Of a DNA stretch of 64,000 nt, positions 1-48,000 are shown piece after piece. This DNA comes from Leucoraja ocellata (lineage: Eukaryota), in the NCBI GenBank assembly GCA_036785375.1, contig JAWMAR010000116.1:2046001-2110000 (forward strand), written 5' to 3'. Position numbers: made by a program. The number at the start of each line of letters is the position of its first letter. Within the stretch, counting starts at the first letter, position 1.

Positions 1-3000
1 AACATCATTTGAGACCACATCAATGCTGACACCATCTGAGAGAAGCTCAACAGTAACCCAAAATACTACACCAGTTGAGACCAAATCAACAACAACACAA
101 GCTGAAACAACTACAGCCTGTGAGACCTCATCAACAGTGTTACCAGATGTGACCGACACAACAGTAACGCCAACAGAGTCCACCTCTGCATCTACACCTG
201 CTGAGACCACCTCAACAGTGATATCCGTTGAGGCCACCTCAACAACTACACCAAGTGAGACCATCCCAACAGCTACAACTGATAAGATCACTCCAACAGT
301 GACACTAGCTGTGACCACCTCAGCAGCAACACAAACTGAGACCACCGTAACGGCAACACCAGCTGAGACCAGCTCAGTAGCTAAACGAGCTGAGCCCATC
401 TCAACTATTACACCGGCTGACTCCACATCAACAGCTTTACCAGCTGAAACCATTGCAACATTGATTACCTCAACAGCAGCAGCTGCTGAGACCACTGCAA
501 CTGCTGCACCAGTTGAGACCACCTTAATAGCATCACCAGATGAGACCATCTCAACAGTGACACCAGATGAGACCACCATCAACCCTATAGCAGCTGAGAC
601 CACATCAACAATGACACCAGCTAAGACCATCTCAACAGCAAATCCATTTAACAGCAGGTCAACGACGCTAGATGAGGCCAGCTCAGCTACTACACCAGTT
701 GAGACCACATCAACAACCACACAAGCTGAGTCTACTTCAAGAACTACACCAGGTGAGACCACCTCATCAATCACACTAGCTGAGGCCACCTCATCTAATC
801 CAGATCTGACCACCTTAAAAGCAACACCAGCTGAGACCACCTCAACCCTAACCCAAGCAGACATCACCTCAACAGCGACACTATCAGAGACCACTTCAAC
901 AAATGCACCTGCAGAGACTATCTCAACAGCAACATCATTTGAGACCACATCAATGCTGACACTATCTGAGATAGCCTCAACAGTAACCCAAGACATAACA
1001 TCGACAGTAACACCAGCTGAGAGCACCTTAACGACTACACAAGCTGAGACCATCTCAACAACTATGCCTGGTGTGACCTCCTCAGCAAATACACCAGTTG
1101 ATATCACCACAACAGCAACACCAGTAGAGACCACTTTAACAACTGTACTAGCTGAGGCTACTTCAGCAGTAACAACAGCTGAGACCACCTCAGCAGCAAT
1201 ACAGGCTGCGACCACCTCAACAGATGAGACCTTCTCAACAGTGATCCCAGCTGAGACCACCTCTACAGTGACACCAGCAGAGACTAGCTCAACAATGACA
1301 CCAGCTAAGACCATCTCAACAACAACTCCATTTAACAGCAGGACAACAACAATGCTAGTTGAGGCCACCTCAACAACCGCATCTGCAGAGACTATCTCAA
1401 CAGCAACATCATTTGAGACCACCTCAATGTTGACACCAGCTGAGAGAACCTCAAAGGTATCCCAAGACACATCGACAAAAACACCAGCTGAAACCACCTC
1501 AACAGCTACACTAGGTGAAACTATTACAACAGCTGCACAAACTGAGACCATCTCAAAAGTAACACCAGCTGAGACTACCTCAACTACTACACTAACAGAG
1601 ACTATCTCAAAAGTAACACCAGATGAGATCACCTCAACAGTAACATCAGCTGAGACTACTTCAATAGTATCATCAGCTGAGGCCTCCTCAGCAAATGCAC
1701 CAGCTGAGACCACCACAAGAGCATCGCAAGTGGAGTCCAGCACAACAGCAATGCCGGCTGTGACCACTCCTACAGTGACACGATCTGAGACCATCTCAAA
1801 AGCAACACCAACACAGGCCCTTTCAATAACTACTTCGGCAAAGACCATCTTCACATCTATAGTTGAGACCACTCCAACAGTGGCACCAGCTGAGACCACT
1901 GTGACAACCAGGCCCCCAGAGACTACCTCCACAACTACACCAGTTGAAACCAATCCAACAGCAACACCAGCTGAGGCATCTACACCCACAACACCAGTTG
2001 AGACCACCTCAATAGAGAGACCAGCGCAGATCACCGCGACAACGACAGAGGCTGAGAACACCTCAACAGTTACACCAGGTGAGTCCACTTCAACAAGTAC
2101 AGCAGGTGAGACCAGGTCAACAGCGACAGTGGCTAAGGTATTCTCAACATCTATGTCAGCTGCGATCACCTCGTCAATTTCTCCAGGCGAGGGAACCTCA
2201 ATATTTACACCTGGTGGGACGAGCTCAACAACTACCCCAAGTGTGACCATCTCCACAATGACTCCACCTGTAACCACCCCAAGAGAGATAACAGCAGAGA
2301 CAGCTTCAACTGTGAGTCCGGCTGAGACCACCTCACCAGTGACACCTGCTGAGACCACCTCAGCAGCGACATCAGCTGAGACCATCCCAACAACTACTCC
2401 AGATGGCATGAACCCAACAACTACACCAAGAGGGATCAGATCAACAGCAACACCAGCTGAGACCAGCTCAATTATTACACCAGCTGACTCCATAACAACA
2501 GCTTCAGCAGCTGAAACCATTGCAACGGTGACACAAGCTGACACCACCTTAATAGCATCGGCAGCTGAGACCATCTCAACAGTGACACCAGATGAGACCA
2601 CCTTCAACGTTATAGCAGCTGAGACAACTTCAACAATGTCACCAGCTAAGACTATCTCAACAGCAACTCCATTTGACAGCAGGTCACCAACACCAACTGA
2701 GGCCAGCTCAAGCACTACACCAGTTGAGACCATGTCAACAACTGCAGAGACAACCTCAAGAATTACACAAGGTGAGACCACCTCAATAATTACATTAGCT
2801 GAGGCCACCTCAACAACTAAGCCAGATCAGACCAACTTAACAGCGAAAACCTTCTTAACAGCGATACAAGATGAGACCAGTGAAACTACACCAACTGTGA
2901 CCACTCTTACAGTGAAGCCATCTGAGATCACCTCAAAAACGTCACTGACAAAAGTCAATTCAACAACTTCACCGGCTGAGACCACTCCTTTAGCCGCACC

Positions 3001-45000: not shown

Positions 45001-48000
45001 CGAAACTACTGCAGCAGAGAACACCGCCCAAACTTCTGCAGGAGAGACAACGACAAAAACTACTACAGGAGAGACCATGTCTCATACTACTGCAGAACAG
45101 ACTACATCACAAACTATCAAAGTAGAGACCATGTCCCAATCTACAACAGGAAAAATCATTTCCCAAAGTACTGAAGAAGAAACCATGTCCAAAATTACCA
45201 TAGCAGAGACCGCGTCCCAAACTACTGCAAGAGAGACCATGTCCCAAATTACAACAGGGGAGATGATGTTTCAATCTACTACAGGAGAGACCACATCCCA
45301 AATTACTGCAAGAGAGATCACATCTGAAACTGCTACAGGAGAGACAATGTCCCAAACTACAACAGTTGAGACGACGCCCCAAACTACTGCAGTAGAAATC
45401 TTATTCCAAACTACTGCAGGGGAGATGATTTCCCAAAGTACAACAGGAAAGACTACAGTCCACACTATTGCAGGAGAGACCGGGTCCCAGAGTACAACAG
45501 GAGATACAATGTCTCAATCTATTACTGGAGAGACCACATCCAGAACTATTGCAGGAGAGACTACGGCCCATTCTACTGGAGGAGAGACAACATCCCAAAC
45601 TACTGCTGAAGTGACCAAGGCCCAAAGTACTACAGTAGAGACAACATCTCTAAGTCCAGAAGGAAAGATCACATCGCAACATACAACAGGACAAACATCC
45701 TCCCAAACTACTTCACGAAAGATTGTGTCCCAAACTACTGAAGGAGAGACAACATCCCAAACGATCACAGATGACACTATGTCTCAAACAACAGGGCGCA
45801 TGATGTCCCAAACTGCACCAGAGACCACAGCCCAAACTACTGCCGGAGAAACCACAGCCCAAACTCAGAAAGGAGAGACAACATTAAAAACTACCACAGG
45901 AGAGACCACGACCCAAACTACTGTAGGAGAGACCACATTCCTAACTACTGAAGGAGTGATCATGTCACAATCTATAACTGGAAAAATAATTTCCCAAAGT
46001 ACTGACGAAGAATCCACGTCCACAACTACTGTAGGAGATACCACGTCCCAAATTATTGCAGGAGGGACCATGTCCCAGAGTACAACAGGAGAGACGATGT
46101 CTCAATCTACTATAGTAGAGACAACATCGCAAACTACTGCAGGAGAGACCACAGCTCAAATTACTGCAGGAGAGATGATGTCCCAAACTACAGTAGGAGA
46201 GTCTATGTCCCCAAGTACAACAGGAGAGACCACACCCAATACTTCTGAAAGAGAAACCATATCCCAAAGTACGACAGGAAGGACAATGTCCCAAACTGCA
46301 ACAGGTGAGACGATGGCCCAAACTACAACAGGAGAGACAATGTTCCAAATTACTACAGGAGAGACCATGTCAAAAACTACCACCGGAGAGATCAGGTCCC
46401 AAAGTACTGCAGGCGAGACCACATATCTAATTACTGAAGGAGAGACCATGTCCCAAGCTACAACAGAAAAAATCATGTCCCAAAGTACTGAAAATGAAAT
46501 CACCTCCCAAATGTCTGCAGGAGAGACCACATCCCACCCTACAACAGGACAGACATCATCCCAAACTACTGCAGGAGAGATCATGTCCCAAACTACTAAA
46601 GGAGAGACCAGAGCCCAAACTAGTAAAGGAGACACCATTTCCCAAAGTACAACAGGAAAAGTCATAACCCAAAGTACTGGAGGAGAATCCTCCTCCCAAA
46701 CTATTGCAGTAGACAGCAGATCCCAAACTACCATGGAAGGGATCATATCCCTAACTACTGCAGGAGAGACCACATTTCAAACTACTGCAGAATGGACCAT
46801 GGCTCAAACTACTGCCAGAGCGATGATGCCCCAATCTACAGCAGAAAACCCAATGTCCCAAAGAACAACTGGAGAGACCGCAAACCAAACTACTGCAGGA
46901 GAGACAACGTCAAAAACTACCACAGGAGAAATCATGTCCCTCTCTACTACAGGAGAGATCACATCCTTAACTACTGCAGGAGAGATTATGTCCCTATCTA
47001 CAACAGGAAGAATTATTTCCCAAAGTTCTGAAGAAGAATCCACATTCCAAACTATTGCAGGAAAGATCAAGCCCCAAAGTACAACAAGAGAGACCACATC
47101 CCAATCTACTGCAGGAGAGATGATGTCACAAGCTGGAACAGGAGAGAACACAACCCAAACTTTCACCAAACAGGTCATATCCCAAACAACTCTGACTGAG
47201 GCTACACCCCAAACTTCTCCAACTGTGATCACATCCCCAAAACCAATCAATATACCATCTACTTTTACCACAAGCAACTCTTCATTCACAACAAGGACGA
47301 CTCCCACACCAACCTTAACGTTAACTTCATCAAGCATACCAAACTCATTCACAATTGCTACCACAGCAAGCGCCATAGCAAGCACATTTACCTCTCCACA
47401 TACAATGGCAATGACAATCAAAAGACCAACCTCATCGAGGATTACCAACAAAACCACTCCAGTTACAGCTACTACAGCAAACTCACCACTCACAAGGACC
47501 ACAATAACTGCAACCACCAGTGCTGCCACACCAAATACTAGAACATCCTCAGTTACGACAACCATCAGACCTGCAACTACCTCCACAACCATCAGACCTA
47601 CCACTTCCACTACAGCTATCACAACTACCACTGCCACAACCATTGCTTCATCCAATTCCTCCACACCCAACACACCAAGAACTTCTACAACAATCACACC
47701 AACCACATCCATCACAACCACCACACCAACCATCACCACCATAACCGTCACTTCAACCACAGCCAACAAACCAATCATTACCGCCATACTAGGCAAGGTC
47801 ACCAACCAAACCACTACCACCAAACCAGTGAAAATTACCACAACTCCTCCAGCTATTAGACCAAGCACCACTGAATCTACGCCTGATCCATCCTGTGGTA
47901 AGCAATTTCATTTTTCATTTAAAAAAACTGAGCAAACATCCTTTACTTGCAAAGAANNNNNNNNNNNNNNNNNNNNNNNNNNNNNNNNNNNNNNNNNNNN

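What the first reader, a model, noticed from the sequence alone, without database searches (positions are those of the whole stretch)
2..47897. Single coding exon of at least 47.9 kb (about 16,000 aa)
Seen: one frame open from the window edge to a canonical donor, with no stop, frameshift or intron-like sequence. Known: the largest familiar human coding exons (MUC16 exon 3, TTN, AHNAK) are roughly 17-22 kb. Inference: this exon is over twice that size and would give a >16,400-aa type I membrane mucin, a rod potentially micrometres long, raising questions about exon definition and mRNA export.
Basis: partly seen in the sequence, partly recalled or inferred. Interest (0 to 1): 0.8.

Follow-up and report, generated by a model that had tools for sequence, protein, structure and literature searches.

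The report
Giant mucin exon in a shark or ray
One 47.9-kb stretch of a shark or ray genome is a real protein-coding exon for a giant sugar-carrying mucin, a size that recent long-read human genomes have also shown for mucin genes, and the gene's membrane-anchor end looks damaged.

Summary
Frame 2 is open from base 2 to a GT donor at 47897/47898: 15,965 codons with 0 stops, against 580 and 779 in the other two frames. It codes: placing the repeat's own substitutions at random gives 127±11 stops, and none is seen. The junction 47897/49238 rebuilds the Cys-Val-Pro motif of homologous proteins.

The exon holds about 1,580 nine-residue units (G-E-T-T/M-S-Q-T-T-A), including 12 near-identical 1,728-bp higher-order copies at 21602-42337. 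Even with those collapsed to one copy, the exon stays about 28.9 kb.

The contig is not human. All close homologues come from sharks and rays, in an unnamed family with the order Thr/Ser repeats, FN3, SEA, EGF, EGF, SEA, TM. The nearest tetrapod relatives are bird UMODL1-like proteins.

The "17-22 kb" yardstick is outdated: human MUC3B exon 2 is 39,267 bp, MUC12's is 32,428 bp, and MUC12 alleles reach 23,080 aa. The membrane anchor is not supported as assembled, because exons 6, 8 and 9 carry frame-breaking indels and the reading stops after the second EGF domain.

Verdict: a new member of a known kind, of moderate interest.

The parts
2..47897 (+). Giant coding exon, open at the 5' window edge: 15,965 codons plus 1 base (ends in phase 1)
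   Evidence: 0 stops against 580 and 779 in the other frames. About 386 stops expected from composition. 127±11 stops expected from random placement of the observed substitutions.
2..4465 (+). First repeat sub-domain: 27/81-bp units of the A-E-T-T-S-T-x-T-P type, with Pro 7.9%
   Evidence: TRF rows at 106-1664, 673-2842 and 3317-3573; composition; translation.
4466..47161 (+). Main array of about 1,580 units of 27 bp (9 aa: G-E-T-T/M-S-Q-T/S-T-A/T), poor in proline and rich in Glu and Gln
   Evidence: TRF periods 27/54/81 with 62-64% matches; unit profile.
21602..42337 (+). 12 higher-order copies of exactly 1,728 bp (64 units, 576 aa), ungapped, 97.0-100% identical to the copy at 31970; older copies (71-92%) lie on both flanks
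   Evidence: All 66 pairs differ, by 3 mismatches at the least.
47162..47897 (+). Non-repetitive Thr/Pro/Ile-rich linker ending ...PDPSC, then the donor TG|GTAAGC
   Evidence: 51% identity over 49 aa to P0003 residues 220-268.
47898..49237 (+). Intron 1, holding the N run 47957-48112 (left unfilled), an AT-rich palindromic tract and a repeat fragment
49238..49492 (+). Exon 2 (255 nt, phase 1 to 1): FN3 domain
   Evidence: Pfam fn3 16.9 bits, below the cut-off of 25. AlphaFold model pLDDT 87.9. Foldseek PDB top hits are FN3 domains and monobodies, TM 0.67-0.79. 58% identical to P0003.
52196..52308 (+). Exon 3 (113 nt, phase 1 to 0): first part of SEA domain 1
   Evidence: Pfam SEA 16.3 bits, below the cut-off of 26.4; 55% to P0003; donor GAT|GTAAGT.
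53034..53253 (+). Exon 4 (220 nt, phase 0 to 1): second part of SEA domain 1, with PGSVNVNF (G-S-V-x-V motif)
   Evidence: No Pfam hit on its own; 55% to P0003 over 78 aa; the homologous stretch of P0012 scores SEA 40.9 bits.
55267..55404 (+). Exon 5 (138 nt, phase 1 to 1): EGF-like domain
   Evidence: Pfam EGF 29.2 bits, above the cut-off of 21.5.
55489..55645 (+). Exon 6 (157 nt, one base too many for phase 1 to 1): calcium-binding EGF domain. Its 3' end departs from the family's N-P-A-N-P-G-T-Q-C. The straight frame meets TAG at 55647-55649, and the only usable GT (ACA|GTAGGG) lies in another frame.
   Evidence: Pfam EGF_CA 34.1 bits, above the cut-off of 27; three-frame reading and 15 homologues; sequence.
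56468..56548 (+). Exon 7 (81 nt, phase 1 to 1): Cys-rich linker DPNACFVSQRDTCALSDCLMTTVSDCK, intact, with donor AAG|GTAAGT
   Evidence: (73% to P0003).
58789..58904 (+). Exon 8 (116 nt): first part of SEA domain 2. Homology runs frame 0 (DKIAFRMK), then frame 2 (ATTLRSKEF...LSARF), then frame 0 (FINA), so there are two indels with stops between them.
   Evidence: Pfam SEA 15.4 bits for the frame-2 piece.
60842..61038 (+). Exon 9 (197 nt, one base too many): second part of SEA domain 2. Homology runs frame 2 (VVPTTRAKLNDVSFNIS), then frame 0 (IIGFQRGSVQVNF...). It ends in a GC donor, ACAG|GCAAGT.
   Evidence: Two tblastn pieces in different frames, 60842-60892 and 60894 onward.
62134..62378 (+). 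Exon 10: stalk, transmembrane helix (WKIAVIVLGVILGVAVLISLAIVAV), a tail of about 27 aa, and stop TAG at 62376-62378. Intact in itself, but out of frame with the upstream exons.
   Evidence: 60% identical to P0003 over 86 aa.

Best explanation
The span 2-47897 is the 3' part of a single, real coding exon of a mucin-like gene of a shark or ray; the exon continues upstream of the window. It encodes at least 15,965 residues of Thr/Ser-rich nine-residue repeats.

Inferred mechanism: the repeats are densely O-glycosylated and form an extended, negatively charged bottle-brush. At the recalled figure of about 0.25 nm per residue it would be about 4 µm long.

The array grew by unequal crossing-over. 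Its young core is 12 copies of a 1,728-bp higher-order unit, flanked by older, diverged copies. Selection keeps the frame and the composition rather than individual residues.

The exon splices in phase 1 to a conserved cassette: FN3, SEA, EGF, EGF. This cassette belongs to an unnamed shark and ray family whose ancestral form continues with a Cys-rich linker, a second SEA domain, a TM helix and a short tail.

In this copy the 3' end of exon 6 and exons 8 and 9 carry frame-breaking indels. The product as assembled therefore ends just after the second EGF domain, and is more likely secreted or shed than anchored. That last step is inference.
For: Shown:
- Open frame: 0 stops in 15,965 codons, against 580 and 779 in the other frames.
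- About 386 stops expected from codon-position composition.
- In the 876 of 1,580 units that lie outside higher-order copies 2-12, random placement of the same substitutions gives 127±11 stops (minimum 101 in 200 runs); 0 are observed.
- The higher-order copies are ungapped and each exactly 1,728 bp.
- The junction gives ...PDPSC-V-PVKLIRV, against FC-V-PMKFIRI and SC-V-PVRFIRM in homologues.
- Exons 2-10 are collinear with P0003 at 45-73% identity.
- The FN3 fold is confirmed. EGF and EGF_CA score above the Pfam cut-offs. SEA scores above the cut-off in homologues.
- All 14 close hits are named from shark or ray species.
- The lesions: exon lengths of 157 and 197 nt are each one base off the required phase, and frame switches are seen.
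- Three to four indels sit in 470 nt of exons 6, 8 and 9, against none that breaks the frame in 47.9 kb. So the giant exon stayed under frame constraint while the SEA2 module decayed, and uniform assembly error is unlikely.
Against: - No transcript data, so expression, exon continuity and the true 3' end are untested.
- The 5' end (acceptor, signal peptide) is outside the window.
- Variation among the 12 young copies looks neutral: 22 synonymous against 65 replacement codons, with variable columns 24/39/34 by codon position. Mean entropy by codon position across all units is 0.88/1.04/1.02. Residue-level constraint is therefore weak.
- Proline is only 2.4%, which is unlike classical PTS domains.
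- 25 donor-like sites (at least 8 of 9 consensus positions) lie inside the exon. At a loose pyrimidine threshold, acceptor-like sites are as dense inside as downstream (7.98 against 6.8 per kb).
- A premature stop in exon 7 would expose a canonically spliced mRNA to nonsense-mediated decay.
- No AATAAA or ATTAAA lies in 62379-64000.
- No protein of 5,500-17,500 aa resembled the exon's last 500 residues (0 of 464 candidates).
Confidence: 0.75

Rival explanations
1. The exon is real, but the assembly has the wrong number of 1,728-bp copies, so the true exon is shorter or longer than 47.9 kb.
For: 12 copies at 97-100% identity span 20.7 kb, and one 864-bp window is 100% identical at lag 1,728. 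Copies 3, 4, 6 and 7 have no private variants. Such arrays are where assemblers err.
Against: All 66 pairs of copies differ, by 3 to 52 mismatches. Divergence rises smoothly towards both flanks, as in natural arrays. A three-unit (5,184-bp) super-repeat pattern is coherent. Bases 2 to about 15,000 hold almost no repeated 40-mers. With only one copy kept, the exon would still be about 28.9 kb.
Confidence: 0.12
2. The open frame is real, but mature mRNAs remove large parts of the array through internal splice sites, so the protein is much shorter.
For: 25 donor-like sites, mostly CAG|GTGAGA, with one perfect CAG|GTGAGT at 2078. An acceptor-like site at 2187 would give an in-frame 108-nt intron. 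At pyrimidine fraction ≥0.6 there are 382 acceptor-like sites.
Against: None of the donor-like sites lies in 21-44 kb. T-rich tracts of the kind seen at 8 of the 9 model acceptors are about 15-fold rarer in the exon: 9 sites (0.19 per kb) against 47 (2.96 per kb) downstream. Frame maintenance across all 47.9 kb would not be needed for sequence that is spliced out.
Confidence: 0.1
3. The whole gene is a recently dead pseudogene, and the giant frame is still open only because too little time has passed.
For: Frame-breaking lesions in exons 6, 8 and 9, and a premature stop. Differences among the young repeat copies look neutral.
Against: If the exon had drifted as long as exons 8-9 (3 indels in 313 nt), tens to hundreds of indels would be expected in 47.9 kb; none breaks the frame. 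4,882 of the 15,965 codons are one substitution from a stop, yet none has become one. Exons 2-5, 7 and 10 and their splice sites are intact.
Confidence: 0.1
4. The span is a non-coding satellite whose unit happens to lack stops in one frame.
For: A period of 27 bp, skewed composition, and a long open frame on the minus strand too (942 aa at 1-2826).
Against: The simulation gives 127±11 stops against 0 observed. The array is joined in phase to conserved FN3/SEA/EGF exons. Homologous proteins also carry Thr/Ser repeats before the same Cys-Val-Pro junction. The minus-strand frames have 216-1,759 stops.
Confidence: 0.01

Closest known systems
Human MUC3A/MUC3B/MUC12/MUC17 (SEA-type tethered mucins of 7q22)
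   Same: One giant tandem-repeat exon rich in Thr and Ser, followed by small exons for EGF and SEA modules, a TM helix and a short tail. The exon sizes are of the same order: MUC3B 39,267 bp, MUC12 32,428 bp (PMC9578598, passages read), and MUC12 alleles up to 23,080 aa (PMC13345508, passages read).
   Different: No sequence relationship was found: none of these appears among the 26 hits. The module order differs (FN3-SEA-EGF-EGF-linker-SEA-TM, against the recalled EGF-SEA-EGF-TM). The repeat is 9 aa, poor in proline (2.4%) and rich in Glu and Gln. The anchor is out of frame here.
UMODL1 (uromodulin-like 1) and bird UMODL1-like proteins
   Same: These are the only non-elasmobranch relatives found. 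P0025-P0028 show 35-40% identity over 45-50% of the query and carry FN3 plus SEA. Window exons match them at 28-61%.
   Different: No ZP domain was found in the window's exons or in the shark and ray homologues. The EMI and WAP parts (recalled) cannot be checked because the 5' end is outside the window. UMODL1 has no giant repeat exon (recalled).
Unnamed shark and ray family (P0003 Hemitrygon akajei, P0004 Cetorhinus maximus, P0005 Pristiophorus japonicus, P0016 Carcharodon carcharias, P0018 Heptranchias perlo and others)
   Same: Collinear over exons 2-10 at 45-73% identity to P0003. The Cys-Val-Pro junction after a Thr/Ser-rich region is the same.
   Different: The public models are 523-1,126 aa. 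The three read through (P0003, P0004, P0005) start inside or right after the repeat, so their repeat exons are cut short or unassembled. Their names are inconsistent: 'uromodulin-like 1', 'DAN4-like', 'fibrillin-1-like', 'mua-3-like'. Their C-terminal exons are in frame, unlike here.
Balbiani ring genes BR1/BR2 of Chironomus
   Same: A secreted repetitive protein from an exceptionally long pre-mRNA (35-40 kb) with only four introns, three of them 5'-proximal (PMC2174289 and PMC4602041, passages read). This shows that such messages are packaged and exported.
   Different: These are insect silk-like secretory proteins, unrelated in sequence and without FN3, SEA or EGF modules (recalled).
Human MUC16 exon 3, TTN and AHNAK
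   Same: Very large coding exons.
   Different: They are smaller than several mucin exons now known from gapless assemblies, so they no longer mark the upper bound.

Membership tests
Mucin (tandem-repeat O-glycoprotein) | Long Ser/Thr-rich tandem-repeat domain encoded by one large exon | tested here: met
   Thr 29.7% and Ser 13.5% over 15,965 codons; about 1,580 units of 27 bp; one open frame.
Mucin (tandem-repeat O-glycoprotein) | Proline-rich 'PTS' composition | tested here: not met
   Pro is 2.4% overall, 7.9% in 2-4465 and 10.6% in the 245-aa tail. The main array instead has Glu at 10-12% and Gln at 9%.
Mucin (tandem-repeat O-glycoprotein) | Dense O-glycosylation; entry into the secretory path (signal peptide) | not testable with these tools
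   No glycosylation data. The 5' end of the gene lies outside the window.
SEA-type transmembrane mucins (MUC1/3/12/13/16/17) | SEA domain with the G-S-V-V-V type self-cleavage motif | tested here: inconclusive
   Exon-wise Pfam SEA scores of 16.3 and 15.4 bits are below the cut-off of 26.4, and exon 4 alone gives no hit. The homologous domains pass: P0012 40.9, P0004 53.1 and P0003 39.4 bits. PGSVNVNF and RGSVQVNF are present. The two halves were not joined for a search.
SEA-type transmembrane mucins (MUC1/3/12/13/16/17) | Transmembrane helix and cytoplasmic tail in frame with the mucin domain | tested here: not met
   The TM exon 62134-62378 is intact, but exon 6 (157 nt) and exon 9 (197 nt) are each one base off phase and exon 8 switches frame twice. 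The straight reading stops at 55647 or, if spliced, at 56487.
SEA-type transmembrane mucins (MUC1/3/12/13/16/17) | Sequence homology of the C-terminal cassette to those genes | tested here: not met
   None appears among the 26 hits seeded with P0003 residues 330-833. The solved structures nearest to P0012 are EGF pairs of ADGRE5, NELL2 and uromodulin.
UMODL1 | FN3, SEA and calcium-binding EGF modules in series | tested here: met
   Bird UMODL1-like hits show 35-40% identity.
UMODL1 | ZP domain before the TM helix (architecture recalled) | tested here: not met
   No ZP match in the Pfam scans of the ten exon translations or of P0003, P0004 and P0012.
Shark and ray FN3-SEA-EGF-EGF-SEA-TM family (unnamed) | Collinear homology of all C-terminal exons, and the Cys-Val-Pro junction after a Thr/Ser-rich region | tested here: met
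   45-73% identity to P0003 in every exon; junction.
Shark and ray FN3-SEA-EGF-EGF-SEA-TM family (unnamed) | Invariant N-[PL]-A-N-P-G-T-Q-C at the end of the second EGF domain, and an uninterrupted frame through SEA2 | tested here: not met
   14 of the 15 homologues examined carry the motif, and 12 continue with [RTI]DPNxCF. The window reads NPANPGAEQLNQRLCGQ-stop. Frame switches occur in exons 8 and 9.

The most novel reading that the evidence does not exclude
A lineage-specific giant mucin of sharks and rays arose independently of the MUC3/12/17 genes, by growing a proline-poor, Glu/Gln-rich nine-residue repeat onto a UMODL1-like FN3-SEA-EGF scaffold. It now holds one of the longest coding exons in any vertebrate assembly (at least 47.9 kb, with its end not reached). 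It is caught in the act of changing from a tethered to a secreted polyanionic gel protein, its second SEA domain and anchor exons decaying while the giant exon stays under frame selection.
Probability: 0.2. Interest if true: 0.6.

Novelty: new member of a known kind. Interest (0 to 1): 0.4.

Why it matters
The exon shows that giant single mucin exons of 40-70 kb are not a primate peculiarity. They also arise in cartilaginous fishes, on an unrelated domain scaffold.

Public gene models of this family are cut short: 523-1,126 aa among the close hits, and the three read through start inside or right after the repeat. Mucin content in shark and ray genomes is therefore probably under-annotated.

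The locus gives a clean internal contrast: 47.9 kb kept in frame next to about 0.5 kb of decaying exons. This contrast can be used to study how selection acts on repeat arrays and how a tethered mucin may become a secreted one.

It does not open a new problem for splicing or mRNA export, because comparable messages are already known.

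Tried and rejected
- Exon 2 searched with 'longer' lengths: 13 candidates, none significant. Only proteins of 148-2,000 aa were searched, so this says little.
- Search for giant relatives using the last 500 residues of the exon: none of 464 candidates of 5,500-17,500 aa. This is weak evidence that no giant model is in the database.
- The listing of cluster members could not be run because the database was off. As a result, cluster sizes and accessions are missing and P0006-P0013 have no names.
- Rfam on 47898-64000: only a mir-3914 match at 28.8 bits against a gathering score of 97, taken as chance.
- Pfam on eight repeat-like ORFs of the introns: nothing. My reading of them as retroelement remains is recalled only.
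- My first model of exon 9 (donor at 61014) was dropped for the GC donor at 61038, which fits the homologues.
- My first models of exon 8 (acceptor at 58805) and exon 9 (read wholly in frame 0) were dropped once the homologues showed the frame switches.
- My first measure of acceptor depletion (pyrimidine fraction ≥0.7) was poorly chosen, since 5 of the 9 model acceptors fall below it. At ≥0.6 there is no depletion. Only T-rich tracts are depleted.
- Literature on ampullary jelly and on elasmobranch mucin genes (listings only) and on SEA mucins in sharks (4 papers, all on MUC1 by title) gave no description of this family.
- One search failed on a search term that was too short and was corrected.
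- The spliced model was never joined, so SEA1 and SEA2 were not tested as whole domains and no full-length search or fold was made.
- Genome contigs (prokaryotes only) was not used. Supplementary tables of PMC9578598 and PMC13345508, which may hold exact exon sizes, could not be seen.

Full report
**Observation.**
Frame 2 of the + strand is open from the first bases of the window. ORF-listing runs the frame to 48142 (16,046 codons). The last stretch is intron, including 52 X from an N run at 47957-48112. Up to the donor TGTG|GTAAGC at 47897/47898 there are 15,965 codons plus one base with no stop. Frames 1 and 3 over the same span have 580 and 779 stops. Codon-position composition predicts about 386 stops. 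Base composition is even across 1-48 kb and changes sharply after 48 kb. The N run lies in intron 1, was left as it is, and does not bear on the exon.

**Anatomy of the exon.**
Tandem Repeats Finder reports 27/54/81-bp periods over 4466-47161 at 62-64% matches, and a different 27/81-bp repeat in 106-4091. Cutting the main array in register gives 1,580 units with the profile G(63%)-E(71%)-T(61%)-T/M-S(71%)-Q(69%)-T/S-T(68%)-A/T. Overall the exon is 29.7% Thr, 13.5% Ser, 10.7% Glu, 8.0% Gln and only 2.4% Pro.

Identical 40-mers recur overwhelmingly at a distance of 1,728 bp, which is 64 units. BLAST of one copy against the exon finds 12 full, ungapped copies of exactly 1,728 bp at 21602-42337. 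They are 97.0-100% identical to the copy at 31970 and are flanked on both sides by older copies of 71-92%. All 66 pairs of copies differ, by 3 to 52 mismatches, and a three-unit super-repeat is visible. Bases 2 to about 15,000 hold almost no repeated 40-mers.

**Is it coding?**
A repeat with an open consensus could stay open by chance, so I tested that directly. I used the 876 of 1,580 units that lie outside higher-order copies 2-12. I placed each unit's own number of substitutions at random, drawn from the observed spectrum. This gave 127±11 in-frame stops (minimum 101 in 200 runs), while the sequence has none.

Of the 15,965 codons, 4,882 are one substitution from a stop. The minus-strand frames have 216-1,759 stops.

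Residue-level constraint is weak. Among the 12 young copies, 22 variable codons are synonymous and 65 change the residue, and the 97 variable columns fall 24/39/34 by codon position. Mean entropy by codon position over all units is 0.88/1.04/1.02. Selection therefore keeps the frame and the composition, as expected for a glycosylated spacer.

**One exon?**
No transcript data are at hand. The exon holds 25 donor-like sites matching at least 8 of 9 consensus positions. Most are CAG|GTGAGA from a Gly-Glu-Thr codon variant, and none lies in 21-44 kb.

My first acceptor measure was poorly chosen, because 5 of the 9 model acceptors fall under its threshold. At a pyrimidine fraction of 0.6 or more, acceptor-like sites are as dense inside the exon as downstream (7.98 against 6.8 per kb). 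Only T-rich tracts, the kind seen at 8 of the 9 model acceptors, are depleted: 0.19 against 2.96 per kb.

One in-frame 108-nt candidate intron (2079-2186) exists on paper. Frame maintenance over the whole span argues that the whole span is translated.

**Downstream exons.**
I searched the spliced model exon by exon. The joined step was left out, so no whole-protein search or fold of the model was made and the two SEA domains were not scored as wholes.

Splice sites and phases give this model:
- exon 2, 49238-49492
- exon 3, 52196-52308
- exon 4, 53034-53253
- exon 5, 55267-55404
- exon 6, 55489-55645
- exon 7, 56468-56548
- exon 8, 58789-58904
- exon 9, 60842-61038, ending in a GC donor ACAG|GCAAGT
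- exon 10, 62134-62378

Pfam results per exon:

| Exon | Pfam family | Score (bits) | Cut-off (bits) |
|---|---|---|---|
| 5 | EGF | 29.2 | 21.5 |
| 6 | EGF_CA | 34.1 | 27 |
| 3 | SEA | 16.3 | 26.4 |
| 8 | SEA | 15.4 | 26.4 |
| 4 | none | - | - |
| 9 | no SEA match (one weak unrelated match) | - | - |
| 2 | fn3 | 16.9 | 25 |

An AlphaFold model of exon 2, built with 14 homologues, has pLDDT 87.9 and seven strands. Its best PDB matches are FN3 domains and monobodies with TM 0.67-0.79. Exon 10 encodes a 25-residue hydrophobic helix and a short tail.

**Relatives and organism.**
A full-library HMMER search with exon 2 found 11 proteins. A word-seeded search with the C-terminal 504 residues of the best of them, P0003, found 26. 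The 14 close hits are all named from sharks and rays: Hemitrygon, Chiloscyllium, Hemiscyllium, Carcharodon, Cetorhinus, Stegostoma, Heptranchias, Pristiophorus, Rhincodon and Mustelus. Their product names are inconsistent. Next come four bird UMODL1-like proteins at 35-40% identity, carrying FN3 and SEA. The rest share only EGF modules.

I therefore do not take this contig for human. It comes from a shark or ray. P0003, from a stingray, is the closest in most exons at 45-73%. No near-identical protein was found, so this species' own model seems absent from the database.

The three models I read through begin inside or just after the Thr/Ser repeat, so their repeat exons are cut short. P0012, with 405 aa, has a hydrophobic N-terminus, FN3, SEA, two EGF domains and a TM helix, and no repeat or second SEA.

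The window gives ...PDPSC, a Val codon split G|TA, then PVKLIRV. The homologues read FC-V-PMKFIRI and SC-V-PVRFIRM.

**Lesions at the 3' end.**
Of the 15 homologues examined, 14 carry N-[PL]-A-N-P-G-T-Q-C at the end of the second EGF domain, and 12 continue with [RTI]DPNxCF. The window reads NPANPGAEQLNQRLCGQ and then TAG at 55647. The last Cys-containing match and the only usable GT (ACA|GTAGGG) lie in the next frame. The exon is 157 nt where phase 1 to 1 needs a multiple of three.

In exon 8 the homology runs in frame 0 (DKIAFRMK), then frame 2 (ATTLRSKEF...LSARF), then frame 0 again (FINA, followed by GTAAAG), with stops between. In exon 9 it runs in frame 2 (VVPTTRAKLNDVSFNIS) and then frame 0 (IIGFQRGSVQVNF...). 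That exon is 197 nt, one base too many.

Read straight, a canonically spliced message stops at 56487-56489 in exon 7. A message that retains intron 6 stops at 55647. Either way the product lacks the second SEA domain and the TM helix.

Exons 6, 8 and 9 together measure 470 nt and hold these four lesions, while 47.9 kb of repeat holds no frame-breaking indel and the higher-order copies are ungapped. Uniform assembly error therefore cannot explain the lesions, and whole-gene drift is also excluded. The mucin exon stayed under frame selection while the SEA2 module decayed.

Whether exons 7 and 10, which are intact, are still used cannot be told. If all four exons 7-10 were drifting, the chance that all three indels would fall in exons 8-9 is about 0.12 by my arithmetic from the exon lengths. 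An ATTAAA lies at 56436, and there is no poly(A) hexamer in 62379-64000.

**How it most likely works.**
Shown: there is a giant open, selected Thr/Ser-repeat exon joined in phase to FN3, SEA and two EGF modules.

Inferred from what is established for mucins: the repeat is densely O-glycosylated and forms an extended brush. At the recalled figure of about 0.25 nm per residue it would be about 4 µm long. It would carry additional negative charge from about 11% Glu. The SEA domain, with its G-S-V-N-V motif, may self-cleave and allow shedding. The array expands and contracts by unequal crossing-over, leaving a homogenised core and diverged edges.

Also inferred: in this copy the protein is released rather than anchored.

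**Comparison with the known.**
Passages I read in PMC9578598 give single PTS exons of 39,267 bp (13,089 aa) for MUC3B, 32,428 bp for MUC12 and 15,873 bp for MUC3A in T2T-CHM13. Passages in PMC13345508 (a 2026 preprint) give MUC12 proteins from 4,677 to 23,080 aa among 296 assemblies and call its exon the largest in the human genome.

For export, Balbiani ring pre-mRNAs of 35-40 kb (PMC2174289, passage) with four introns, three of them proximal (PMC4602041, passages), are a long-studied precedent.

The window's exon of at least 47.9 kb is therefore in the top class but is not a new order of magnitude. If the 12 young copies were collapsed to one, it would still be about 28.9 kb.

By descent the gene is not a MUC3/12/17 relative, since none appears. 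The solved structures nearest to P0012 are EGF pairs of ADGRE5, NELL2 and uromodulin. It shares the FN3-SEA-EGF cassette with UMODL1-like proteins but lacks a ZP domain.

My searches for papers on such a family in sharks and rays found none (4 papers, all on MUC1 by title; listings only).

**Verdict.**
This is a new member of a known kind: a giant mucin exon in an unnamed shark and ray gene family, with a decaying anchor end. Interest 0.4.

Noticed in passing
window 55489-55645, 58789-58904, 60842-61038: Four frame-breaking indels relative to homologues are confined to the end of EGF2 and the two SEA2 exons. The 47.9-kb repeat exon next door has none. This looks like loss of one module in an otherwise constrained gene.
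   Followed up: partly
window 61038/61039 to 62133/62134: Intron 9 appears to be a GC-AG intron (ACAG|GCAAGT ... TATATCAG|GT). Its junction reproduces the ...TG|TT... join of the homologues.
   Followed up: partly
window 55405-55488; protein P0005: The 84-nt intron 5 has a stop in the window. The Pristiophorus japonicus public model P0005 reads through the corresponding stretch (GRTLPEF...), which is probably an annotation error in that record.
   Followed up: no
window 48704-49093 (-) and 57776-58402 (+): Two intronic ORF fragments in opposite orientation are 71% identical over 56 aa. They have no Pfam match. I recall this motif as the 3' part of a retroelement ORF common in shark genomes, but that is untested.
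   Followed up: partly
window 48290-48540: An AT-rich tract of short palindromic TATATA/TTGATAA motifs sits in intron 1, just after the N run.
   Followed up: no
window 2079-2186: A perfect donor consensus (CAG|GTGAGT at 2078) and an acceptor-like site at 2187 would define an in-frame 108-nt intron inside the giant exon. There is no evidence that it is used.
   Followed up: no
window 21602-42337: Copies 2, 5 and 9 of the 1,728-bp unit are close to one another (5-7 mismatches), and so are copies 3, 4, 6, 7 and 8 (3-11 mismatches). This points to duplication of three-unit (5,184-bp) blocks.
   Followed up: partly
window 1-2826 (-): A 942-aa open frame lies on the opposite strand of the repeat. 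That strand's three frames have 216-1,759 stops overall, so this is a by-product of the skewed composition.
   Followed up: yes
window 56123-56194 (-): A weak Rfam match to mir-3914 scores 28.8 bits against a gathering score of 97. It is probably chance.
   Followed up: no
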